A stretch of 64,000 nucleotides of DNA from Sphingorhabdus sp. (lineage in GTDB: Bacteria > Pseudomonadota > Alphaproteobacteria > Sphingomonadales > Sphingomonadaceae). This document shows positions 2,909 through 13,817 of this stretch, one piece after another (positions within the stretch are counted from its first letter, which is position 1; each line of letters opens with the position of its first letter). A program made the position numbers and the translations under genes. Location: positions 29,863 to 93,862 of the forward strand of contig NZ_JBIKPH010000001.1 in the NCBI RefSeq assembly GCF_044357595.1, read 5' to 3'. Below the pieces are notes generated by a model. The model had not been told where the DNA came from and ran no database searches. It saw only the letters and a program-made list of their open reading frames with translations.

Positions 2909-3796
2909 TCAATGGTGTTGATGATGGGGAAGGGTTGATCTTAGCGGAGAAGCAATAGCCTCCACCAGATCTGCCTGATCGGTCTTTGCAGCCAGACCCT
3001 CGATGATAATTGGAAGAGCTAGTTTTACCTCATGCGTGGGACCTGGAAGTGCAAAAACGGTTGACCAACCAAGCCTTGCGATAGCGATGCGAACCGAGTC
3101 CTTAACGTGCCGGCCATGGCCTCGTTTGTAATGGGCCAGAACTGCAGTTGAAAGTTTAGGGTCAAGGCGCTCTAATGCCTCGACTGTGTGGTCCTTATCT
3201 TCTGCTCCGACACCGCCGGTCGTGATAATGATGCCGAAACCTTCACCCGAAAGCCGCGCAACGATGCCCGCGATTTCCGCTTCACTGTCGCCCGCAATGC
3301 CGCCGAACTCAACTTCGAAATCAGCTGCTTCCATGGCGTTACGGATAGCTTGATAATTTGTATCTTCGATCTCGCCTGCCAGAAGTTCGCTGCCGGTGCT
3401 CACAACTGCGACGCGGCCCGATGCGTAGTTTGCGATCTGGGTTTCCAGCTTGCGGGCATCGGCGAGATAGCGTTCGATTTGCGCGCGCGGTGTCCCGATA
3501 ACGCCCAAAATTCCCTCGGAATGAATTGTCGCATCCTTAGCCACGGTGACGCCTATTAAATCGCCGATTGCGCCAAGAATTTCATCCTGTTTGCCTGTCA
3601 CATTCTCAAGCTCAACTCGTGGTACCAAAATATCGAGCACCACAAGATTTTCGCGAACATCGGTAACAAAGACTTTCTCGCGAGGTAGCATCAGTACATC
3701 GGCCACCACGTTGGCCAGATTGGGGAGATTGGCGCTATCCAAGCTAATGCCGTGTAGCCAGATTTCGGTCTTCTCAAGCAGTTGAACTGATGTCAT
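2909..3796 (-). CDS. MoeA/MogA/CinA-fold (MoCF_biosynth) domain protein with uncharacterised N-terminal domain and His-rich tail, paralog A
   Basis: STGSELLAGEIEDTN, TTGGVGAEDKDHT, ALPGP motifs; C-terminal PHHQHH. Start taken at ATG 3796, which overlaps the upstream TGA. Confidence 0.8.
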   Translation of the reverse strand: MTSVQLLEKTEIWLHGISLDSANLPNLANVVADVLMLPREKVFVTDVRENLVVLDILVPRVELENVTGKQDEILGAIGDLIGVTVAKDATIHSEGILGVIGTPRAQIERYLADARKLETQIANYASGRVAVVSTGSELLAGEIEDTNYQAIRNAMEAADFEVEFGGIAGDSEAEIAGIVARLSGEGFGIIITTGGVGAEDKDHTVEALERLDPKLSTAVLAHYKRGHGRHVKDSVRIAIARLGWSTVFALPGPTHEVKLALPIIIEGLAAKTDQADLVEAIASPLRSTLPHHQHH

Positions 3797-5223
3797 CAGG
3801 TCAGTCCGCGTTGCCGCAACCATTTAGGCAGAAATTCATTTTCGACCTTGTCGCGAACCTGGGGCGCACGTGACATTAGATGCTCACCTAATTTTCGGCT
3901 GACACGGAATGCCCCGGGAGTACGGTCAAACACAATGATGTTTTCTGTGCCGCCATCGCGGCAAGCTGCTGCTACCGCTTCGTTTAAAGTCGACCAGACG
4001 GGCGCTTTGGCACGATCGAAATGATAGTTCGACGGATCATTCAGCATCCAACGATTGACTGTGTCACCGACGACATGGATCGGATAGTTATCCCACAGCC
4101 ATGGCTGAGGTACACCGCCTGCCATATAGTTGATAACAATAGCTTTTATTGCGTTATTCTTACCCATTGTTAGCCCCGGCTCCGAACTTTCGTGCCGATC
4201 TGCTGCCAACAGAGAAAGATTATCTAGATCCATGAAATCGATGTCGGCGCATAACATGTTGTCAAACGCTATGCCGCCGGCGTAGCAATAAACGCCGCAG
4301 CCATGGTCGTCGAAAACCACTACGCAATCTTCAATTTCGCCCAGTATTTTCATCGCCATTGCATAATTGCGCATGATTCCGGCGGCGAGACGACGATCAA
4401 GCGCTTTTAGATCATTATCGGCCTCAACACTGACGACCCCTTCTGATGTGGTGTCTAGTACCATCGTGCCGACATATCGTTGCTGGATAAAGTCGCTTTC
4501 AAAAATGCAGCGCGACACAATCTGGCCGGTCCGTGGACCAAATCCGAAATGATAGGCCGAGCGAGATTCCAAACGGGCATATGCCATGCCGAAAGGCTTC
4601 ATTAGTCTGTCCATCATGCGATGTAGATAACCTTCGCGCATTTCGGTCACATGGGTGTGTATAAAATATGGGGCGTCAAAAAGCTTTTTGGTAACATACA
4701 TATCGCCAAGCTTGGTGCCTACCTTGGTCCCAGCACCAATTTGCGGGCACTCCTCTACGTCGCCGAAGCGTTCTTCTAACCGATAGATTTTAACCCAGTC
4801 GGGATTTTCGATGTGGCCCATGGATTCCGCGATCCTTAGCCTGACTTTGGCGCCACAAGTTTTTTTAACATGTTCGGCAATTACTTCGAGCATAGTTACA
4901 TATGCTTCGCCGCAAAGTTGTAATCCATGCGGATTCGCGAGAAGATTGACCATGCGGCCAGGCTCAATTTTTGACCAATCCATGGTGTCCGCCTTTGCCT
5001 GTGCTTGGCGGCGCACTTCATCAAGGTTAGTCGGACCAAGTAATGCATCTTCGGACCAGATTGTTTGGGGCAGGTCCGGCATCAGGGCGCGGATGGGAAG
5101 TGCGGTCATACCTGGAAGATCGGCAGCGCGCATCGCGACTACCTTTGCAGGTTCACGCTTATTCCATGTGCGGTGAAAAGCGGGCGGACGCAGAGCATCC
5201 ATGAAGGGAGAGAGCATCGCCAT
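3796..5223 (-). CDS. putative divergent LarA-superfamily (NPN-binding) enzyme, paralog A
   Basis: 475 aa. The segments IEPGRMVNLLANPHG, GDMYVTKKLFDAPYFIHTHV and LMKPFGMAYARLESRSAYH follow the LarA-like N-terminal pattern, with K209-x15-H225. Located in the larBCE cluster. Confidence 0.6.
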   Translation of the reverse strand: MAMLSPFMDALRPPAFHRTWNKREPAKVVAMRAADLPGMTALPIRALMPDLPQTIWSEDALLGPTNLDEVRRQAQAKADTMDWSKIEPGRMVNLLANPHGLQLCGEAYVTMLEVIAEHVKKTCGAKVRLRIAESMGHIENPDWVKIYRLEERFGDVEECPQIGAGTKVGTKLGDMYVTKKLFDAPYFIHTHVTEMREGYLHRMMDRLMKPFGMAYARLESRSAYHFGFGPRTGQIVSRCIFESDFIQQRYVGTMVLDTTSEGVVSVEADNDLKALDRRLAAGIMRNYAMAMKILGEIEDCVVVFDDHGCGVYCYAGGIAFDNMLCADIDFMDLDNLSLLAADRHESSEPGLTMGKNNAIKAIVINYMAGGVPQPWLWDNYPIHVVGDTVNRWMLNDPSNYHFDRAKAPVWSTLNEAVAAACRDGGTENIIVFDRTPGAFRVSRKLGEHLMSRAPQVRDKVENEFLPKWLRQRGLT

Positions 5224-5225
5224 GA

Positions 5226-5876
5226 TTATCGCCTTTTCAACTTAGCCATATCACCAAATTCCTTATCAAGCGGATATTCTGGGAAGGCATTGCGGATTGC
5301 GTCAGGCAGCGTTCCATCGGGCTGCACATGCTGCCATAACGTTGCGGATTCACCGTACCATTGGAACCCGTTTTTGGGATTGCGCGGGGCATCCCCATGT
5401 CCCGCGCAAGCCAATAGATGCAGTATCGGCTGCAAACACATCTCAACACATCCCGTGCGGGCCCCAGTGGCCAAAGACACGGCTTCCGGCGAATGCGCCC
5501 CCGCAATGATGGCGGTCGCTATTTCTCCCGCCTTGGTGTCGGTGCAAACACACAACTGCATGTTACGACCAAATCCTGCCTTGCGGCAAAGCGCCTTTAC
5601 TGCCTCAGTATCGACTGAGGGCAAGTCAAAGCCAACTTCAAACGGTTCTGGCAGTTCTATCATTTCAATGGCGTCATCTGGGCAGATTTCAACACAAGCC
5701 TGTGCGTTGTAGCAGGCTTCTGGTTCCAAAATAGCAATGTTGCGGCTTGTTCCGGGTTCGTCTTCTCGACGGGGCCGCATACCAATCGCTACCGTTGGAC
5801 ACACCTGTTCACACAGTCGGCAGCCTGTGCATTTATCGACAATGATTTGTGCTACCATGCGAACGCGTTTGGGCAA
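5226..5876 (-). CDS. ferredoxin with two 4Fe-4S-type motifs plus C-terminal BFD-like [2Fe-2S] domain, paralog A
   Basis: CTGCRLCEQVCP, CYNAQACVEICP (one Cys replaced by Ala), CVCT...GARTGCVEMC; TTG start preceded by AGGAG. Confidence 0.88.
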   Translation of the reverse strand: MPKRVRMVAQIIVDKCTGCRLCEQVCPTVAIGMRPRREDEPGTSRNIAILEPEACYNAQACVEICPDDAIEMIELPEPFEVGFDLPSVDTEAVKALCRKAGFGRNMQLCVCTDTKAGEIATAIIAGAHSPEAVSLATGARTGCVEMCLQPILHLLACAGHGDAPRNPKNGFQWYGESATLWQHVQPDGTLPDAIRNAFPEYPLDKEFGDMAKLKRR

Positions 5877-5941
5877 GCGCTACTCCTGTCAAAGTCCTAA
5901 ATTTGGCTGATGCAGCCAAAAAAGGAATCAATCAATTTTAT

Positions 5942-5958
5942 TTACTGTCTGACAGTAA
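5942..5958. promoter_or_regulatory. candidate TetR operator in the divergent promoter region
   Basis: Perfect inverted repeat TTACTGTC-T-GACAGTAA between the divergent ferredoxin A and TetR genes. Confidence 0.7.
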
Positions 5959-5995
5959 GTTTGTAGGTTGATGAGAGCAAGAGGATTCGGGTCAG

Positions 5996-6667
5996 GTGAA
6001 TATGGTTAGTGTTGCCGTTATCTCTCGTACGCAAGAAGAGCGCACAGAAGCTGCAAAGGAGCGGATTCGCGACACTGCATTGTTGTTATTTGGTGAAAAC
6101 GGATATGATGCGACAACATTAGCGGCCATCAGTCTAAAAGCAGGATTTAGCCGGACGCTTGCACAATATCATTATCCTGAGAAATCCGACCTAGCTCTAG
6201 AACTTCTCGATGAACGCATTCGGCGTGACAATCATTTGGAGCTCTTGAATTGCGCCGATGGTTTAAGCGCGCAAGGAGCTTGGGATTGCCTCATACGCCA
6301 TCTGGATTCTGTCAGTGAATATTATGGCAAGCTCCATGGGGCATGCGATCACAGTATTGTTGTACGCGGCGAAATGGCCTTGCATGCAGCGGCGCTTATG
6401 CATGCTGATGCCGTTTTGTCTGCCCGCGTGCATAATCTGACCGTTGATTTAATCGCGCGGATAGAACGCTTGTTTGAAATTTGCCGCAAAGCAAATTTTA
6501 TTCCGGTTAACTCCGATCCTCATGCGTTGGCAATCCTGCATGTTCACTCCATATGGGGACTGGCACAGGCTTTGTTTGCAAATCCGAAAGGTAGCAAGCC
6601 TATAGCTGCCGCCTTCGAACAAATTCATGTTTTGCTAGAGGCGCTTCGAACGCCCGAGAAATTGTAA
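5996..6667 (+). CDS. TetR/AcrR family transcriptional regulator
   Basis: N-terminal HTH: LFGENGYDATTLAAISLKAGFSRTLAQYHYPEK. Confidence 0.92.
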   Translation: MNMVSVAVISRTQEERTEAAKERIRDTALLLFGENGYDATTLAAISLKAGFSRTLAQYHYPEKSDLALELLDERIRRDNHLELLNCADGLSAQGAWDCLIRHLDSVSEYYGKLHGACDHSIVVRGEMALHAAALMHADAVLSARVHNLTVDLIARIERLFEICRKANFIPVNSDPHALAILHVHSIWGLAQALFANPKGSKPIAAAFEQIHVLLEALRTPEKL

Positions 6668-6679
6668 GGGAGAGCGAAA

Positions 6680-7291
6680 GTGGCCACGATTAAGCTTGTC
6701 GCAGATTATGACGCGGATCCATGTACTGGTTGCAAATTATGTGACATCGTCTGCCCAAGCGGCGCCATTAAAATGGAAGCGCGCAAGCCTGTTATTGACG
6801 AGGCTTTGTGTATTGGCTGTGGACGCTGCGTTGATCGCTGCCCCGAAGATATCATGTGGATGAAACTGCGTGCCGAACCACTGGTGACAACCGTTCATCC
6901 TGACGAAGTGGATCAGGAAGCTGTGACCGCTCTACTCAAGAAAGCGGGTATTGAAGCCGCCATGTCAGTATGTGTGTGCACATTGACGCCGGGATCGGAA
7001 ATCGCAGCTTCTATTATCAAAGGTGCGAAAAACCTTGAAGAGGTCTGTGCAGCCACGGGCATGCGTTCTGGATGTGGCATCTATTGCGTTGCTCCTGCAC
7101 TCCGCCTGCTGGAAGCGGCAGGATGCGATATGACGCCGCCGGGTCAGTACCGATGGTATCCCTCGACGCTTTCGCTTTATGATCTAAGCGATGAAGTGTG
7201 TGCGAAATACCCTGACGCCTATATTGCAGAAGACAGGGCGGTATTTGATCCTGAACATAAATATGGCCCACTTTCAAAGGAGACATTGTAA
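6680..7291 (+). CDS. ferredoxin 2x[4Fe-4S] plus BFD-like [2Fe-2S] domain, paralog B
   Basis: CTGCKLCDIVCP, CIGCGRCVDRCP, CVCT...GMRSGCGIYC. Confidence 0.9.
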   Translation: MATIKLVADYDADPCTGCKLCDIVCPSGAIKMEARKPVIDEALCIGCGRCVDRCPEDIMWMKLRAEPLVTTVHPDEVDQEAVTALLKKAGIEAAMSVCVCTLTPGSEIAASIIKGAKNLEEVCAATGMRSGCGIYCVAPALRLLEAAGCDMTPPGQYRWYPSTLSLYDLSDEVCAKYPDAYIAEDRAVFDPEHKYGPLSKETL

Positions 7292-8703
7292 TGAACGCTC
7301 ATACCGCGATCAAACCTCCTGCATTCATGCACTCGGATTACGGGCCGGCGCTTCAGCCGCATGTTTCCGAGACGATTGATTCCATGATTTCGGTGCCGTT
7401 GACTGATTTTTTCCCTGATTTTGCGCCTGCTATCACTTCGGGATATCCAGAAACACTTGAAGCCGATCTCGAGCGTGTGCGCGCGGAAACCCGCAAATCG
7501 TTGGCGCTTGTTGATATGTCGAACATTGCAGTCACTGACAGTGTTAACATTCTTGCGTCCGAACACGGCTTCGGACTGATGGGCGGTTGGCCCTATGCCG
7601 AGATGATCAAGACAATCCGCGAAGTGGTCATGGAGCGCACCGGATGCAGCAAAATCCATCTGCGCTTAGCCATTTACCGTGGATTTAAAGAAGCGGACGA
7701 GGTCGCGGAGCATTTCGGTTTCAACGAAGTATTTGAAGGCCGGGTCAAAGGTCTAGGCCCATTCGACCAAGGCGTTGAAGTCGAAACCGCAGTTGGCCCA
7801 ATGTATCTTATAAAGCGCGCATTTGATTCCCAGAAATTCATCCACGCATATTATGATGATCCGCGCGAAATGTATTTTAATCGGCTGCTCTACAAGTCAT
7901 TTAAATCGTTCTGCATGTCTTATGCGCGCTATGAAACACGTTCGGTTTATCACAGCCTTTTCGGCAATCGTAGCGGCAGCGTGATCCCCCGGGCTTTATT
8001 CGATTCAGACTTCATCCAGCAGCGTTACACATTCAGCTCTGTTCTGTGCACGACTCCGATGGGAGTAATCGGTGTTGATGCGACAACAGATTTATATGCG
8101 ATCGATCGGCGGATAACCAAAAGCCATTTGGAAACCTATGGCAGGATGCAGCGGCTGTTTGCCGAAATCAAGGATTGCGTCGCGATCTGGGATGGCGGCC
8201 GGTGGGGCTATTATCTGCATGGCGGAGGTTTGATTTTTGGCACGCTGCTGACCAATCATTCAGATGCGTTTGATCTTGATCAGCCAGTTGTTGCTGGTTT
8301 CTTGCAATCTCCCTCCGCTCCGGTGAACTTTTCAAAGAATAGGAATTTGCGTGGGATTGTTGTCAATCAGGCTTGGGTAGGGGCAGGGATCCCGTATGTG
8401 ACGATGCCTTTTACCACGCCAATGTATATTGTTGGTGAGGAGCAGGCCCAAATGTGGCGCGAAGATCCAACCAACCCTTTATTGATGGATCGCGCCAAAG
8501 TTGTTGATAGTCTTCAGCAGGGCGTCGCAATGGCATGCGAAAAGGGGCAGACGGACAAGCTGATCGTGTTTGATGGAAGCTACGGCCATTTGACCTGCAA
8601 TCAGGCACTGGCCGACCTGCTAAAGGAACGTGCGCCTGCAGTGGATAAAATGGTCGGTGATGAACTGCTGCCGAAATGGCTGGCCCAACGTGGGCTTTCC
8701 TGA
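7291..8703 (+). CDS. putative divergent LarA-superfamily (NPN-binding) enzyme, paralog B
   Basis: 470 aa. Clear paralog of 3796..5223 (PPAF, VNxLAxxHG, FIH, YARxExRSxYH, SDFIQQRY, LPKWLxQRGL), with K205-x15-H221. Confidence 0.6.
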   Translation: MNAHTAIKPPAFMHSDYGPALQPHVSETIDSMISVPLTDFFPDFAPAITSGYPETLEADLERVRAETRKSLALVDMSNIAVTDSVNILASEHGFGLMGGWPYAEMIKTIREVVMERTGCSKIHLRLAIYRGFKEADEVAEHFGFNEVFEGRVKGLGPFDQGVEVETAVGPMYLIKRAFDSQKFIHAYYDDPREMYFNRLLYKSFKSFCMSYARYETRSVYHSLFGNRSGSVIPRALFDSDFIQQRYTFSSVLCTTPMGVIGVDATTDLYAIDRRITKSHLETYGRMQRLFAEIKDCVAIWDGGRWGYYLHGGGLIFGTLLTNHSDAFDLDQPVVAGFLQSPSAPVNFSKNRNLRGIVVNQAWVGAGIPYVTMPFTTPMYIVGEEQAQMWREDPTNPLLMDRAKVVDSLQQGVAMACEKGQTDKLIVFDGSYGHLTCNQALADLLKERAPAVDKMVGDELLPKWLAQRGLS

Positions 8704-8706
8704 CCG

Positions 8707-9609
8707 GTGGCAACAGACCTCGACCTTCTTTCCAAGACCGAACTCTGGGTTGAGGACATACTGCTCGATGATGTAGACCTTACCCAGCTTGCAATTTGTG
8801 CGGGGGGCGTTCTGGGCCTAGGGACGGAGGATATTTTTGTCACCGATGTCCGCGAACGGCGGGTGGTATTTGATGTTGTTTCCCAGAGCGTTAGTCTAGA
8901 AGCGATCGCCGGTAAGGAAGCTGCATTGCTCAGCAAATTGGCGGCATTTTCTGGTGTCACCTTGGGCGCCCGTGCGTCAGTGCATAGCTTCGGAGTGCTA
9001 GGAGTGATCGGGGCGCCAGCGGAACAAGCGGCAGACATTTTGGCGAATGCCGCCAAGCTGGAGGCGGGCTTGCAAGCCTATGTTGCGCGATCGGTTGTTG
9101 TCTTATCGACGGGCGGCGAAGTGGCGCGCGGCGAGATTGAAGATACAAATTACGCGGCGGTTAAATCCATATTGAGCGGCCATGGGTATCTGGTCGAGCA
9201 TGCGGGTGTGGTCGAAGACGACGAAGCTTTAATCGCGGCACGGATCGGCCATTTACTTGAAGAAGGCTACGGTATGATCATTACCACAGGCGGCGTTGGC
9301 GCCGAAGATAAAGACAAAACCATCGAAGCCATGCAACGCCTTGTCCCGGATCTTACAACTGCGATTCTGGCAGAATATAAAGTTGGGCACGGGCGGCATG
9401 TGAAACCGCATGTCCGCGTTGCGTGCGGACGCATTGGTGATATTTTGCTTGTTGCCCTGCCTGGCCCGACCCGCGAAGTGCTGGCCGCGTTGCCTGTTTT
9501 GATCGACGCCATATCCAAAGGGCTGCCGCCGGCAGTGCTGGCTGAGGAAATAGCCACGCCCATCCGCGCGCTTTGGAAAGCCCATAAGATGGGGCATGCT
9601 CACACATGA
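8707..9609 (+). CDS. MoeA/MogA/CinA-fold domain protein with His-rich tail, paralog B
   Basis: STGGEVARGEIEDTN, TTGGVGAEDKDKT, GHGRHVK, ALPGP; tail HKMGHAHT; paralog of 2909..3796. Confidence 0.8.
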   Translation: MATDLDLLSKTELWVEDILLDDVDLTQLAICAGGVLGLGTEDIFVTDVRERRVVFDVVSQSVSLEAIAGKEAALLSKLAAFSGVTLGARASVHSFGVLGVIGAPAEQAADILANAAKLEAGLQAYVARSVVVLSTGGEVARGEIEDTNYAAVKSILSGHGYLVEHAGVVEDDEALIAARIGHLLEEGYGMIITTGGVGAEDKDKTIEAMQRLVPDLTTAILAEYKVGHGRHVKPHVRVACGRIGDILLVALPGPTREVLAALPVLIDAISKGLPPAVLAEEIATPIRALWKAHKMGHAHT

Positions 9610-10217
9610 TGTCATTCGGATTTTTGTCGGTTTTGGTTGCTGGTTTAGGTATGGGCATTTTGCACGCCTTTGATCCAGATCACGTGATGACCATGTCGTC
9701 GCTCGGCGCTCGGCCTGACTCGCGCGGAGCAACAAAGCGTTATGCTTTTTCATGGGGCATCGGCCACGGAGGCATCTTGGTAATTGCCGCGCTTGCGTTG
9801 CTGGTTTTTGAAGCGCCCATGCCAGAGACCTTACCAAAGGGCGCTGAACGGATAGTTGGGGTAATTCTGATCGCGGCAGGAGGCAGTCTGGCACTGGCAC
9901 TCTGGCGTGGCTCAACGCCGGAGCCATCAGCGACTAGAACAAGGGCGCCGTTCTTGATCGGCATGGTCCACGGAACAGCAGGAAGTGCCGCGGTCTTTGC
10001 CCTGCTTCCAATCGGAATGCTATCGCCGATCCAAGGTGTGTTTTACATACTCGTGTTCTCCTTTGGCGTGCTTGTGGGAATGATGGGCTTTGGTCATGGT
10101 TTTGACCGGATCCAGACATTGATCTCAAAGCGCGGACAGGCTTTTGTGAGGCCACTGCGCGGCGGTGTGGCAGTGCTCGCCATCGGTATGGGAAGCTATT
10201 GGCTCGTAGGCGCCTGA
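9606..10217 (+). CDS. nickel permease (UreH/NiCoT-like)
   Basis: Hydrophobic, about 6 TM segments; HAFDPDH signature, WGIGHG and GMVHGTAGS motifs. Confidence 0.8.
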   Translation: MMSFGFLSVLVAGLGMGILHAFDPDHVMTMSSLGARPDSRGATKRYAFSWGIGHGGILVIAALALLVFEAPMPETLPKGAERIVGVILIAAGGSLALALWRGSTPEPSATRTRAPFLIGMVHGTAGSAAVFALLPIGMLSPIQGVFYILVFSFGVLVGMMGFGHGFDRIQTLISKRGQAFVRPLRGGVAVLAIGMGSYWLVGA

Positions 10218-10219
10218 TT

Positions 10220-10822
10220 GTGCGTATAGGTCTTTATGGGGGGTGTTTTAACCCCGTGCACGAAGGCCATATCGCCGTGGCGCGCGGCGCTCAAAAGGCT
10301 CTCCAGCTGGATCAAGTGATCTTCATTCCTTCCGGGCATCCACCGCTTAAGGGTAACTATGGCCTTGCCGATGGATTTCACCGTGCTGCTATGCTCGAGC
10401 GAGCAATCTCGAACCAACCTGGCATGAGTGTCTCAAATATCGAGCTTGATCGGGATGGCCCTAGTTTCACTGTCGATACAGTCCGTACATTAAGAAAGAC
10501 ATTTCAAGCAGATACAGAGGTTTTTTTTCTGCTGGGCGATGATTGTATCAAGCGCCTGCCGCACTGGAAAGGCATCGAAGAACTCCACCAATTGCTGCGC
10601 TTCGCCATACTGCCGAGATTAGAAATCATGTTAGATATTCATGATAAAAACATGATCTTTATCAATATTCCTCGTGTAGCGGTGTCTTCAACCCAAATCA
10701 GGGAAACGCTTGCATCAGGCAAAAGGCCTCCAGCAGCCTTGCTCCATCCGGATGTCGCGGAGTATATTGATCGCCATCATCTTTTTACAAAACACCCGGA
10801 GCGCGCCCGTGTCCAAAATTAA
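10220..10822 (+). CDS. nadD: nicotinate-nucleotide adenylyltransferase
   Basis: GGCFNPVHEGH (HxGH), PSFTVDT, LLGDD, VSSTQIR; start taken at GTG 10220. Confidence 0.9.
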   Translation: MRIGLYGGCFNPVHEGHIAVARGAQKALQLDQVIFIPSGHPPLKGNYGLADGFHRAAMLERAISNQPGMSVSNIELDRDGPSFTVDTVRTLRKTFQADTEVFFLLGDDCIKRLPHWKGIEELHQLLRFAILPRLEIMLDIHDKNMIFINIPRVAVSSTQIRETLASGKRPPAALLHPDVAEYIDRHHLFTKHPERARVQN

Positions 10823-11615
10823 CCAGAAGATCCATGATAAGTTGGATAGCATCGGTCATGCAATCATTGCATGTAGCGGCGGGATCGACTCTACCTTGCT
10901 AGCGCTCGTCGCGCATCGCCGAGCCCCGGGCAAAGTGACCGTTGCGCATGCAGTGAGCCCTGCAGTGCCGCCTGAGGCTACCGATCGGGTACGAATGCTG
11001 GCGGGACAGGAGGGTTGGGCGCTTTCCATTGTGCAGTCGGGTGAGTTTCAGGACGAGAACTACCTCTCTAACCCCGTCAATCGCTGCTACTTCTGTAAGT
11101 CCAATCTTTATGAAAGCCTGACACAGATTGTTCTGGCGCATGACAGTGGTACAGTTCTAAGTGGCGCTAATTTGGATGACTTGGGCGAATATCGCCCTGG
11201 ACTCGACGCCGCGGCAGAACGTGGTGTCAGGCATCCATGGATAGAAGCCAGCTTTACGAAGACAGATATTCGGACACTTGCACGGGAACTTGGCGTGCCC
11301 TTTGCCGAGCTTCCTTCGTCGCCTTGCCTTGCCAGTCGCTTGTATACAGGCACAAGGGTGACCGCAGAACGCCTGCGTGCCGTGCACGCTTGCGAAAAGC
11401 GGGTGAAAGAAGTGACAGGTATCAGTGTCGTAAGGTGCCGCGTGAAAGATGATCAGCTTATCGTTGAAGTGACCGATGATGATCAGAGTTTGATAACGGC
11501 GCTATTGCTTCGCGAATTGGGCGAACTTGCGGCAACGTTCGAACCAAGCATTCAATTGGCGAACTTGGATGCGCAGTCGTATAAGCCTGGCCGGGCTTTT
11601 GTGGGGGCAAAATGA
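10809..11615 (+). CDS. larE: ATP-dependent sulfur insertase of NPN biosynthesis
   Basis: PP-loop SGGIDS, NPVNRCYFCK, GANLDDLGEYRPG, SPCLASR; start taken at GTG 10809. Confidence 0.9.
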   Translation: MSKINQKIHDKLDSIGHAIIACSGGIDSTLLALVAHRRAPGKVTVAHAVSPAVPPEATDRVRMLAGQEGWALSIVQSGEFQDENYLSNPVNRCYFCKSNLYESLTQIVLAHDSGTVLSGANLDDLGEYRPGLDAAAERGVRHPWIEASFTKTDIRTLARELGVPFAELPSSPCLASRLYTGTRVTAERLRAVHACEKRVKEVTGISVVRCRVKDDQLIVEVTDDDQSLITALLLRELGELAATFEPSIQLANLDAQSYKPGRAFVGAK

Positions 11616-12280
11616 ATAGCGGATTTGTGCATGATGAAGACCGCCTAACAAGATTGGGAATGCCAGAAGCAATTTTTTGCGAGGGTAAAGACCCAATTGC
11701 GTTAAAGGCCATCTATCAGGAGCTTTCGAAGAACAGCAGCGCGCCAGTTCTGTTTACAAGGCTGTTGCCTGATCAATATTCAGATCTCTCTATCAATAGC
11801 GCGGCATCTTTGGATTATGATGTGCAATCGCATACAGCCTATTTGCATGGCACTCTTCCAAAGCGGCCATTTTCAGTTGCTGTTGTAACAGCAGGAACAT
11901 CGGACCTGCGCGTGGCGGGTGAGGCGCTGCGCACATTGCAGTTTTCGGGTATCCATGCGGAACGTATTGCCGATGTTGGCGTCGCGGGTATCCACCGTTT
12001 GTTGGCGCGGATAGACCATATTAAAACATTCGATCTTGTGATCGTTGTGGCTGGATGGGATGCTGCTCTTGCCTCTGTGATGGGCGGATTAACTGGGCAA
12101 CCAATTATCGCGGTTCCGTCTTCGACTGGATATGGTGTGGCAGCAGGCGGAACGAGCGCATTGCATTCCATGTTATCAAGCTGCGGGCAGGGCGTTTTGG
12201 TGACCAACATCGACAACGGCTTTGGTGCGGCGTGCGGCGCGATCCGGATACTCAATATGATTTCAAGGAACACGACATGA
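11612..12280 (+). CDS. larB: NaAD carboxylase/hydrolase of NPN biosynthesis (PurE-like)
   Basis: RLGMPEAIFCEGK, AGTSDLRVAGEA, DVGVAGIHRL, VPSSTGYG, MLSSCGQG, NIDNGFGAA. Confidence 0.93.
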   Translation: MNSGFVHDEDRLTRLGMPEAIFCEGKDPIALKAIYQELSKNSSAPVLFTRLLPDQYSDLSINSAASLDYDVQSHTAYLHGTLPKRPFSVAVVTAGTSDLRVAGEALRTLQFSGIHAERIADVGVAGIHRLLARIDHIKTFDLVIVVAGWDAALASVMGGLTGQPIIAVPSSTGYGVAAGGTSALHSMLSSCGQGVLVTNIDNGFGAACGAIRILNMISRNTT

Positions 12281-13008
12281 AGCGCCAATCGATCGTTTTG
12301 CGCACACCTTCGGGGATTAGCGGCGATATGTTGCTGACCGGCCTCGCGCGTCTGGCGGGGATCAGCAACGCAGAACTTTCAGCTATGGTGGATAGCATCG
12401 GCGTCGAGGCGCTGCACGATTGTGTAACAATTGAGCCACATCATGTGAATTGGATCACCGGATTTCAGGCGCGGATCACTCTTCCGCATGAGCACCATCA
12501 CCGCACGCCAAAAACGATTTATGACATCATAGAACGCAGCGGGTTAACCGATGCGGCAAAGTCACTCGCGACAAAAGCGTTTGCGATATTGGCCGAAGCA
12601 GAAGCTACAGTGCATGGGTGTTCAGTGGACGAAGTCCATTTCCATGAAGTTGGCGCGCTCGATTCTATTTTAGATACTTGCGTTGCGGCTGCGTTGTTCA
12701 CCCAAATTGATCCGGCTGAGTTCCATTGCAGCCCTCTGCCGATGTGTGATGGCATAATCCGTTGTGAACATGGGCTACTTTCCAGTCCGCCACCAGCGGT
12801 TCAGGAGATGCTCAACGGCGTTCCTGTATACGGAGCGGACGCTAGCGGCGAAACGGTCACGCCCACGGCATTGGCATTTTTGAAAGCGGCTGGTGCGCGC
12901 TTTGGCAAGTGGCCGCAATGTGAAGTGGTCACCTCTGCGCGTGCTTATGGCGGCAAGGTGTTTGAAAACCTCCCCAATGGGGCGAATTTCTTTTTGGTGA
13001 CAATGTGA
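12277..13008 (+). CDS. larC: nickel insertase LarC, N-terminal domain only (243 aa)
   Basis: SGISGDM, HEHHHR, AEAEATVHG, VHFHEVGALDSILD, HGLLSSPPPA, ETVTPT; ATG 12277 overlaps the larB stop. Confidence 0.9.
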   Translation: MKRQSIVLRTPSGISGDMLLTGLARLAGISNAELSAMVDSIGVEALHDCVTIEPHHVNWITGFQARITLPHEHHHRTPKTIYDIIERSGLTDAAKSLATKAFAILAEAEATVHGCSVDEVHFHEVGALDSILDTCVAAALFTQIDPAEFHCSPLPMCDGIIRCEHGLLSSPPPAVQEMLNGVPVYGADASGETVTPTALAFLKAAGARFGKWPQCEVVTSARAYGGKVFENLPNGANFFLVTM

Positions 13009-13817
13009 ACCCAGCGCCTGCGGCAGCAGACATTGCCGGAAGCCTGCTTGGCGGCGCAACGGGCCTTTATCTTGCCATTGTCGAAGCCTGCGAGGATGGC
13101 ATCATTGCGGGCACTGGCTTTGTCGACCCATCGGGCTCGTTAGGACCGAACGGATCGTGGAGATTGCTGGTAGTGGAAGGAGATGCCATATCCGCAGGGC
13201 AACCACTTATCGAACTGATCGGTGAGGCAGCGCATTTGGGCGTTGCGGAAGACTATGTGCTTGGGCCTCTCGGTTTTGCGTCAGGAATTGCGACGCGCGC
13301 GAAGACCTTTCGGGAAGCCGCGCCTGCCGGCCTTTCCATTGCTTGCGGCGGGTGGAAGAAACTGCCGTTGGCGTTGAAGCCATTGCTGCGCGCCGGGCTT
13401 GCTGTTTCTGGTATCTTACCGCGGCTTGTTGCCGGCGATTTTGTCTATGTCGGCAAAAACGCTGTTATCATGCTGGGTGGTGTGGATGCCGCGATTAAAG
13501 CGGGCGTGGCCGTTGGTCATGGTCCGGTGGCCGTGCAGGTTAAATCAGTCGCCGAAGCCGTTTCGTCGGTGCGTACGGGCGCAGGGATCATCATGGTTGA
13601 TACCGCCGATTTAGCTGATTTAGCCGACGTGCACGCGGAACTCACGCGGCTTGGATTGCGGCGGGACGTGCAACTCGCATTTGGCGGCGGTGTCCGTCTG
13701 CAGGATCTGGTGCCAGCGGCAGAGGCAGGGGCCGATGCAGTCGATGTCGGCCGCGCGATATTGGATGCGCCCTTGCTCGACCTGCGCCTTCGCGTTGTTT
13801 CCAAGCACCCTGCCTGA
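13005..13817 (+). CDS. NadC/ModD-like phosphoribosyltransferase (degenerate)
   Basis: DGIIAG, EGDAISAGQPLIELIG, ASGIATRA, IIMVD, FGGGV, ADAVDVG pattern of the QPRTase fold; the TRKT motif is replaced by GWKK. Confidence 0.7.
   Translation: MNPAPAAADIAGSLLGGATGLYLAIVEACEDGIIAGTGFVDPSGSLGPNGSWRLLVVEGDAISAGQPLIELIGEAAHLGVAEDYVLGPLGFASGIATRAKTFREAAPAGLSIACGGWKKLPLALKPLLRAGLAVSGILPRLVAGDFVYVGKNAVIMLGGVDAAIKAGVAVGHGPVAVQVKSVAEAVSSVRTGAGIIMVDTADLADLADVHAELTRLGLRRDVQLAFGGGVRLQDLVPAAEAGADAVDVGRAILDAPLLDLRLRVVSKHPA

What the first reader, a model, noticed from the sequence alone, without database searches (positions are those of the whole stretch)
4549..7953. Both hypothetical proteins keep the LarA K-x15-H cofactor anchor but lack the racemase catalytic histidines
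Seen: paralog A reads K209-PFGMAYARLESRSAY-H225 (codons 4599-4597 and 4551-4549). Paralog B reads K205-SFCMSYARYETRSVY-H221 (7903-7905 and 7951-7953). Known: L. plantarum LarA tethers NPN to Lys184 and ligates Ni with His200, also 16 residues apart, and uses His108 and His174 as acid/base. Seen: the position 10 residues before the Lys (His174-equivalent if ungapped) is Tyr in both (Y199, Y195). The likely His108 loop is AESMGHIE in A but AIYRGFKE in B. A different conserved His sits in NPHG/SEHG. Inference: cofactor binding is retained, the two-base racemase machinery is remodelled, and the two paralogs probably differ in substrate.
Basis: partly seen in the sequence, partly recalled or inferred. 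Interest (0 to 1): 0.85.

Follow-up and report, generated by a model that had tools for sequence, protein, structure and literature searches.

The report
Ferredoxin-paired nickel-pincer enzymes lacking racemase histidines
Two unannotated proteins are predicted to fold like the nickel enzyme lactate racemase and keep its cofactor-anchoring lysine and histidine, but likely lack both racemase histidines; each is encoded behind its own iron-sulfur protein, so they are probably electron-exchanging nickel enzymes of an undescribed kind, and a sister branch likely opens the furan ring without oxygen.

Summary

larB is in 47 of 50 host genomes; this genome has larBCE but no larA. Best reading: ferredoxin-linked nickel-pincer oxidoreductases, not racemases (0.7).

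Clade C sits with the furandicarboxylate decarboxylase HmfF and mhpDEF, in place of hmfABCDE. In one anaerobic class, 10 of 10 HmfF genomes carry it. It likely reduces 2-furoate to 2-hydroxypentadienoate. The substrates of A and B are unresolved. The scan noted this family before in other genomes; I found no paper describing it.

The parts
3796..5223 (-). Paralog A (clade A), 475 aa, LarA-fold protein
4597..4599 (-). A Lys209, predicted NPN thioamide anchor (LarA Lys184)
4549..4551 (-). A His225, predicted Ni ligand (LarA His200)
4627..4629 (-). A Tyr199, at the LarA His174 site (His in clade C)
   Evidence: confidence 3 of 9
4813..4818 (-). A Gly136 (LarA His108 site) and the adjacent His137
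4927..4929 (-). A His99 of NPHG, near-invariant, in the LarA D72-H73 loop
7291..8703 (+). Paralog B (clade B), 470 aa, LarA-fold protein
7903..7905 (+). B Lys205, predicted NPN anchor
7951..7953 (+). B His221, predicted Ni ligand
7873..7875 (+). B Tyr195, at the LarA His174 site
7681..7683 (+). B Gly131, at the LarA His108 site
5226..5876 (-). Ferredoxin A: N-terminal di-[4Fe-4S] motifs plus BFD-like [2Fe-2S] domain; stop codon two bases before the start of A
6680..7291 (+). Ferredoxin B: same architecture; stop overlaps the start of B (TAATG)
2909..3823 (-). MogA/CinA-like (MoCF_biosynth) protein behind A
8707..9609 (+). MogA/CinA-like (MoCF_biosynth) protein behind B
5996..6667 (+). TetR-family regulator heading the B arm
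5942..5958 (.). 8-bp inverted repeat between the divergent arms, likely TetR operator; the only exact copy in the genome, conserved at the same place in 7 sphingomonad loci
9606..10217 (+). Likely Ni transporter (weak NicO/HoxN match, below cut-off)
10199..10822 (+). NadD nicotinate-nucleotide adenylyltransferase (makes NaAD, the LarB substrate)
   Evidence: over cut-off
10710..11615 (+). LarE
   Evidence: TIGR00268 over cut-off
11612..12280 (+). LarB
   Evidence: NF033503 over cut-off
12277..13008 (+). LarC, N-terminal (LarC1) domain only
13005..13817 (+). Divergent NadC/QPRTase-like phosphoribosyltransferase

Best explanation
Paralogs A and B are predicted LarA-fold proteins that keep an invariant Lys/His pair and likely carry a covalently tethered nickel-pincer cofactor, and they likely work with their cognate iron-sulfur ferredoxins as one-way oxidoreductases rather than racemases. 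Shown by tools: the fold of the models, the invariant Lys209/His225, Tyr and Gly at the aligned catalytic-His sites, the strict ferredoxin pairing and the link to larBCE. Inferred: Lys209 forms the thioamide and His225 ligates Ni, as in LarA. A racemase returns the hydride to the same substrate and needs two opposed bases. Here one proton donor/acceptor remains (Tyr199 in A and B, His in clade C), so the pincer exchanges a hydride with the substrate in one direction. It is then reset by two single-electron steps through the ferredoxin's two [4Fe-4S] and one [2Fe-2S] clusters. The NadC-like and MogA/CinA-like proteins likely supply, salvage or modify the cofactor. For sister clade C the gene context points to a reaction: 2-furoate + 2[H] to 2-hydroxypenta-2,4-dienoate (hydride to C5, C5-O cleavage), then MhpD/E/F to pyruvate and acetyl-CoA (about 0.55). 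For A and B the most likely substrates are lipophilic cyclic or unsaturated carboxylates or their CoA esters from the surrounding acyl-CoA catabolic island (about 0.35). A and B differ at every substrate-facing loop, so they probably act on different compounds.
Against: No residue-level superposition: the fold tools return ranges only, so His-site assignments rest on a profile alignment with confidence 3-4 of 9, and one search gave a rival register (Arg196 on His174). Arg75, named as NPN-binding in PMC7583248, has no clear equivalent; Lys298 cannot be placed. Paralog A keeps His137, and the invariant H99, H189, R196, R202 and Y312 could rebuild a two-base site. This genome's LarC lacks the CTP-binding LarC2 domain (genome 87.8% complete), so cofactor maturation by the known route is incomplete. 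Binding of the ferredoxin is not shown. This genome has no hmfF, and A/B neighbours do not name a substrate. 13 of 22 clade C genomes have no HmfF-like gene. 3 of 9 HmfF-bearing Bacillales genomes showed neither the family nor hmfABCDE-type genes in the 20 kb fetched. PtHmfF also accepts pyrrole-2-carboxylate (PMC8252502). Co-occurrence counts are among related genomes and are not independent.
Confidence: 0.7

Rival explanations
1. A and B are NPN-dependent racemases or epimerases with a rebuilt acid/base pair (for example Tyr199 plus His137 or His99), or one-way epimerases as proposed for single-His LarA homologs. The ferredoxin only repairs or matures the cofactor.
For: LarA fold and anchor retained; His137 in 104 of 122 clade A proteins and invariant H99 and H189; single-His LarA homologs were proposed to be unidirectional epimerases (bioRxiv 10.1101/2025.08.19.671153).
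Against: A repair factor would not need to be clade-matched to each paralog (87 of 87) or be fused to an NAD(P)H flavoprotein (L048). Clade C context needs a net two-electron step between furoate and the MhpD substrate. Clade B has Phe, and 18 clade A proteins have Pro, at position 137.
Confidence: 0.13
2. The enzymes use a modified pincer (adenylated NPAD-like, or another pyridine nucleotide built by the NadC-like and MogA/CinA-like proteins), possibly non-covalently. The redox role could be the same, but the cofactor differs from LarA's.
For: NadC-like gene at 60 and MoCF-like gene at 63 of 79 loci; nadD at 11 of 44 A/B loci; LarC lacks LarC2 in this genome and in G002 and G007; Arg75 not retained; an NPAD cofactor exists (PMC13524815 passages).
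Against: The tethering Lys is invariant. Most other hosts have full-length LarC, including nadD-bearing G010 and G011.
Confidence: 0.12
3. The proteins are non-catalytic NPN carriers or part of cofactor maturation for another client such as the neighbouring aldo-keto reductase.
For: They lie in the larBCE operon; an AKR orthologue occurs at 14 loci, and some AKRs bind NPMN (PMC13524815).
Against: The AKR's PDB matches at E up to 1e-30 are ordinary NADPH AKRs and do not include NphT 9YEB. Clades differ in substrate-facing residues and catabolic neighbours. Many loci lie far from larBCE.
Confidence: 0.05

Closest known systems
LarA lactate racemase and LarA homologs (PDB 5HUQ, 6C1W, 9EIA, 2YJG, 6D6Z; Pfam Lar_N PF09861)
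   Same: Two-domain fold over 307-350 aligned residues; Lys/His cofactor anchor 16 residues apart; link to larBCE.
   Different: 9-16% identity, no Pfam match; His108 site is Gly (A, B) or Arg (C); His174 site is Tyr (A, B) or His (C); Arg75 not evident; dedicated three-cluster ferredoxin plus NadC-like and MogA-like genes.
Single-catalytic-His LarA homologs LarA_Sp and LarA_Bw (PDB 9Q3K, 9Q3J; bioRxiv 10.1101/2025.08.19.671153)
   Different: They keep the His108 equivalent and have Asn at His174; sugar-metabolism context; no ferredoxin in the sections read. A and B change both sites.
NphT (NPMN-dependent hydride transferase, AKR fold, PDB 9YEB; PMC13524815) and NPAD-dependent ornithine cyclodeaminase
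   Same: Precedent that the pincer does chemistry other than racemisation, including intermolecular hydride transfer.
   Different: Unrelated folds; hydride moves between organic substrates; no Fe-S electron partner.
HmfABCDE furoate pathway (Mo-dependent furoyl-CoA dehydrogenase; PMC3223595)
   Same: Clade C occupies the same genomic slot next to the HmfF/ALDH/ADH/transporter cassette.
   Different: Oxidative, CoA- and Mo-dependent, giving 2-oxoglutarate (product recalled); clade C is predicted reductive, Ni-dependent, feeding MhpD/E/F. Not applicable to A and B, whose genome lacks hmfF.

Membership tests
LarA superfamily (NPN-binding fold) | LarA two-domain alpha/beta fold | tested here: met
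LarA superfamily (NPN-binding fold) | Sequence match to Pfam Lar_N (PF09861) or an NCBIfam LarA model | tested here: not met
   0 Pfam families at E 0.1 for A and B; no LarA model in NCBIfam; HMM search of the PDB found no LarA. One clade C member carries an automatic UniRef name 'LarA-like N-terminal domain-containing protein'.
LarA superfamily (NPN-binding fold) | Lys184 (thioamide) and His200 (Ni ligand) | tested here: met
   K209/K205 and H225/H221 align with confidence 6 and 8 and are invariant; by profile alignment, not by 3D superposition
LarA superfamily (NPN-binding fold) | Arg75 (NPN phosphate and substrate carboxylate) | tested here: inconclusive
   Aligned to a gap or Gly with low confidence; invariant R196 and R202 could substitute
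LarA superfamily (NPN-binding fold) | Genetic link to larB, larC, larE | tested here: met
   Same operon here; larB in 47 of 50 host genomes
LarA superfamily (NPN-binding fold) | Bound Ni/NPN | not testable with these tools
   needs intact mass and metal analysis
LarA-type 2-hydroxyacid racemase/epimerase | His108 general acid/base | tested here: not met
   Gly136/Gly131 (Gly 241, Arg 125 of 381); HHalign confidence 4, 9 for clade C; His137 adjacent in A
LarA-type 2-hydroxyacid racemase/epimerase | His174 general acid/base | tested here: not met
   Tyr199/Tyr195; the rival register gives Arg196, also not His; His only in clade C and a few others
LarA-type 2-hydroxyacid racemase/epimerase | Asp72 and Lys298 | tested here: inconclusive
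   Asp72 site is Pro (A), Glu (B), His (C); the C-terminal Y294-Q295-K298 helix does not align reliably
NphT-type NPMN-dependent AKR | TIM-barrel AKR fold | tested here: not met
   models match the LarA fold

The most novel reading that the evidence does not exclude
This family is a new class of nickel enzyme: a nickel-pincer hydride/electron transducer wired to a dedicated three-cluster ferredoxin. Clade C is the missing oxygen-, CoA- and molybdenum-independent furoate ring-opening reductase of anaerobes (furoate to 2-hydroxypenta-2,4-dienoate), and clades A and B in this window do related reductive or oxidative chemistry on other heterocyclic or unsaturated carboxylates.
Probability: 0.4. 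Interest if true: 0.92.

Novelty: new variant of a known kind. Interest (0 to 1): 0.78.

Why it matters
Only about a dozen nickel enzymes are known, and many genomes make the pincer cofactor without a known user (PMC13524815). Known pincer enzymes move hydride within or between organic substrates; none of those in the papers I read is coupled to an Fe-S electron chain. This family is a concrete candidate client in larA-less genomes from sphingomonads, mycobacteria, sulfate reducers, acetogens and archaea. It also makes an old question testable: the 2011 review PMC3223595 knows anaerobic furfural degradation to acetate only from two Desulfovibrio isolates, and gives no genes in the passages read. 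Clade C plus mhpDEF predicts a route, with value for detoxifying lignocellulose hydrolysates without oxygen.

Tried and rejected
Sequence searches of Pfam, NCBIfam and the PDB with A, B or the family profile found no LarA link; the profile search of 1.8 billion representatives returned only family members and fragments among the 150 listed. The first HHalign runs (A2/A3, almost no clade C) were not significant (probability 1% or less) and placed Arg196 on His174. I dropped that register after adding clade C (4 of 6 runs and both runs give Tyr199/His199), but it is not excluded. A complex prediction of B with its ferredoxin could not be run because the queue was full; this says nothing for or against binding. 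The idea that nadD simply replaces LarC2 was weakened: nadD-bearing G010 and G011 have full-length LarC. The neighbouring AKR does not match NphT at E 1e-30. Neighbour clustering of A/B loci gave only generic acyl-CoA and redox genes, and the operator has no second exact site in the genome, so no regulon clue. Promoter/terminator scan of the divergent region found nothing. Literature: 10 searches found no paper on a ferredoxin-paired LarA-like family or on a furoate-to-2-oxopent-4-enoate step (0 papers). The Brune 1983 and Desguin 2025 NPAD papers were not held. Subscription papers are not covered. 12 of 17 supplementary files of PMC13524815 were searched; only the first places per term were shown, all from a metalloenzyme list; its figure-only supplement on co-occurring families and the tables of PMC7583248 were not seen and could mention this family.
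Full report
1. Observation. A is 475 aa (3796-5223, -), B is 470 aa (7291-8703, +), and they are 35% identical over 473 positions. The spacing K-x15-H occurs twice in A and four times in B, so it means little alone. I pooled 381 distinct sequences: the two window proteins, 120 listed hits from each of three searches, five extra cluster members and the full-length representatives. K209 is Lys in 379 and H225 is His in 380; in the other K-x15-H pairs neither residue exceeds 40%.

3. Register. The fold tools give ranges only, so I mapped residues by profile alignment to 30 LarA-family proteins fetched from host genomes, numbered through the L. plantarum chain printed. The family has three clades: A (ANPHGF / AESMGH / REGYLHR), B (SEHGF / xYRGF / RExYF[NH]R) and C (SHHGF / GVGLRFR / REVHFHR). 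With almost no clade C the alignment was not significant and put Arg196 on His174. With 59 diverse members of all clades it reached probability 56%, E 1.1e-4, score 43.5 (reversed control 19.0; 20 block-shuffled controls 14.7-29.0): K184-K209 (confidence 6), H200-H225 (8), H174-Y199 (3), H108-G136 (4), D72-P98 (5); for B, K205, H221, Y195, G131, E91. Two natural variants support the His registers. All 122 clade C proteins have His at position 199, and the divergent P0244 reads VATGFR where LarA reads VATGFH. So A and B have Tyr and Gly at the two catalytic sites, and clade C has His and Arg. Limits: A has His137 beside the His108 site (104 of 122 clade A proteins); Arg75 and Lys298 have no reliable equivalent; H99/H92 lies in the D72-H73 loop. 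The roles of these LarA residues come from PMC7583248 (passages), PMC11851776 (passages) and bioRxiv 2025.08.19.671153 (parts 1-3 of 4). PMC7583248 already suggests that LarA homologs missing H174 or K298 may catalyse another hydride-mediated reaction.

4. Context. The window has two divergent arms, ferredoxin-A-MoCF and TetR-ferredoxin-B-MoCF-Ni transporter-nadD-larE-larB-larC-nadC-like, separated by a conserved inverted repeat. The nearest named locus is a Sphingorhabdus MAG at 95% identity (L011); the cluster is patchy, in 1 of 60 relatives. Across 78 fetched loci plus the window (80 best of 252 confirmed matches), a di-[4Fe-4S]+BFD ferredoxin lies directly upstream of 95 of 96 family genes: 92 by automatic rule, three more by the map, and one gene at a contig edge. 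MoCF-like and NadC-like genes occur at 63 and 60 of 79 loci. Ferredoxins sort with their enzyme clade in 87 of 87 assignable pairs, even when two paralogs share a locus. In L048 the ferredoxin is fused to a GltD-like NAD(P)-binding protein. I tested 50 of the 78 host genomes: larB passes cut-off in 47 (6 of 14 controls) and Lar_N is missing from 23, including 19 of the 22 clade A genomes. It is also missing from this genome (87.8% complete). LarC here has only the LarC1 domain, which inserts Ni but does not CMPylate (PMC13510736 passages).

5. A substrate clue from clade C. Clade C neighbours include MhpD (20 of 34 loci versus 0 of 44 A/B loci), MhpE/F, UbiD/UbiX, aldehyde and alcohol dehydrogenases, AOR and BenE transporters. 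The UbiD matches PDB 6H6V at 561 bits versus 215 for the next family. 6H6V is PtHmfF, the furandicarboxylate decarboxylase (PMC8988006 and PMC8252502 passages). In G582 the UbiD is identical to 6H6V and lies about 19 kb from a ferredoxin-clade C-nadC-mhpDFE operon. HmfF-like genes are in 9 of 22 clade C and 0 of 28 A/B genomes. Among 162 genomes of one anaerobic class, 10 have HmfF and 16 have clade C; all 10 are among the 16 (kin are not independent). In 400 other genomes from the order of G045, 9 have HmfF at 57% identity or more and none has the family. In 6 of these 9, Mo-dehydrogenase, CoA-ligase or crotonase genes of the hmfABCDE pattern lie within the 20 kb fetched; in 3 they do not (names inferred from Pfam families and the pattern described in PMC3223595). 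The upper cassette is 61-81% identical between the two settings, and five clade C + HmfF genomes lack HmfB- and HmfE-type orthologues (best 28% and 39%). The module therefore appears to replace hmfABCDE. Formula balance (my inference): furoate C5H4O3 + 2H = C5H6O3, the 2-oxopent-4-enoate / 2-hydroxypentadienoate that MhpD hydrates. Hydride addition at C5 with C5-O cleavage needs only one proton donor. Pyrrole-2-carboxylate is the main rival substrate.

6. Mechanism for A and B. Shown: fold of the models, anchor conservation, changed catalytic sites, strict ferredoxin pairing, larBCE link. Inferred: covalent NPN; one-way hydride exchange with Tyr199/Tyr195 as proton shuttle; reset of the Ni-pincer by single-electron steps through the ferredoxin (0.7). 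This genome lacks hmfF and hmfB-type genes, and no A/B locus has mhpD, so furoate itself is not indicated. Neighbours are acyl-CoA dehydrogenases, crotonases, CoA ligases, SDRs, an AKR and an old yellow enzyme, which suggests lipophilic cyclic or unsaturated acids (about 0.35). A complex prediction could not be run, so binding is untested.

7. Novelty. By fold and anchor these belong to the LarA superfamily; they fail the racemase test at both catalytic histidines. Ten literature searches found no description of the family; one member has an automatic 'LarA-like' label, and the ESM Atlas lists the nearest clusters as hypothetical with Lar_N/DUF362 clusters at 0.89. Earlier scan notes describe the same four-gene module in other genomes, one apparently with the furan idea. 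I saw that note only, and it is not independent support. Verdict: real, new variant of a known kind with a likely new reaction class; interest 0.78.

Noticed in passing
window 12277-13008: LarC has only the LarC1 (Ni-insertion) domain; no LarC2 anywhere in this genome, G002 or G007. nadD lies in the same operon and might supply the nucleotidyl-transfer step, which would give an adenylated cofactor; nadD also occurs with full-length LarC in G010 and G011.
   Followed up: partly
window 5942-5958: Perfect 8-bp inverted repeat between the divergent operons, conserved in L001-L005, L008 and L011; single exact copy in the genome; likely TetR operator.
   Followed up: partly
L078:2389-3681 (also L034, L044, L045, L046, L050, L058): A second atypical LarA homolog (Pfam Lar_N positive) next to clade C loci; in the alignment to solved LarA chains it lacks His108, His174 and Lys184 but keeps His200.
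   Followed up: no
L048:7951-9999: Ferredoxin fused to a GltD-like NAD(P)-binding flavoprotein directly upstream of a clade C gene.
   Followed up: partly
L071:3723-5435 and L075:11630-13345: NadC-like and MoCF-like proteins are fused in one polypeptide, suggesting consecutive steps on one nucleotide.
   Followed up: no
L157:17718-18569, L149:8372-9217, L147:10677-11528: A ribonucleotide-reductase-R2-like (ferritin-fold) gene sits between FeADH and hmfF in Bacillales furan cassettes, 81% identical between settings.
   Followed up: no
L147 and L148 (G256, G309), L156 (G147): HmfF genes with neither hmfABCDE-type genes within the 20 kb fetched nor this family in the genome: a third lower furoate route, or genes elsewhere.
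   Followed up: no
L055:4312-5829: An HmfD-like CoA ligase (51% identity) beside a clade C cluster; furoyl-CoA may be the substrate in some hosts.
   Followed up: no
window 1-46738: A long catabolic island of SDRs, crotonases, acyl-CoA dehydrogenases, CoA ligase, thioesterases, a sulfotransferase-like ORF and GMC oxidoreductases surrounds the cluster (names beyond 17400 read from the translations, not from a family search).
   Followed up: no
P0452, P0453 and related hits: Clade C is present in many Moorella thermoacetica strains, the source of the LarC used for cryo-EM; a convenient cultured host for testing.
   Followed up: no
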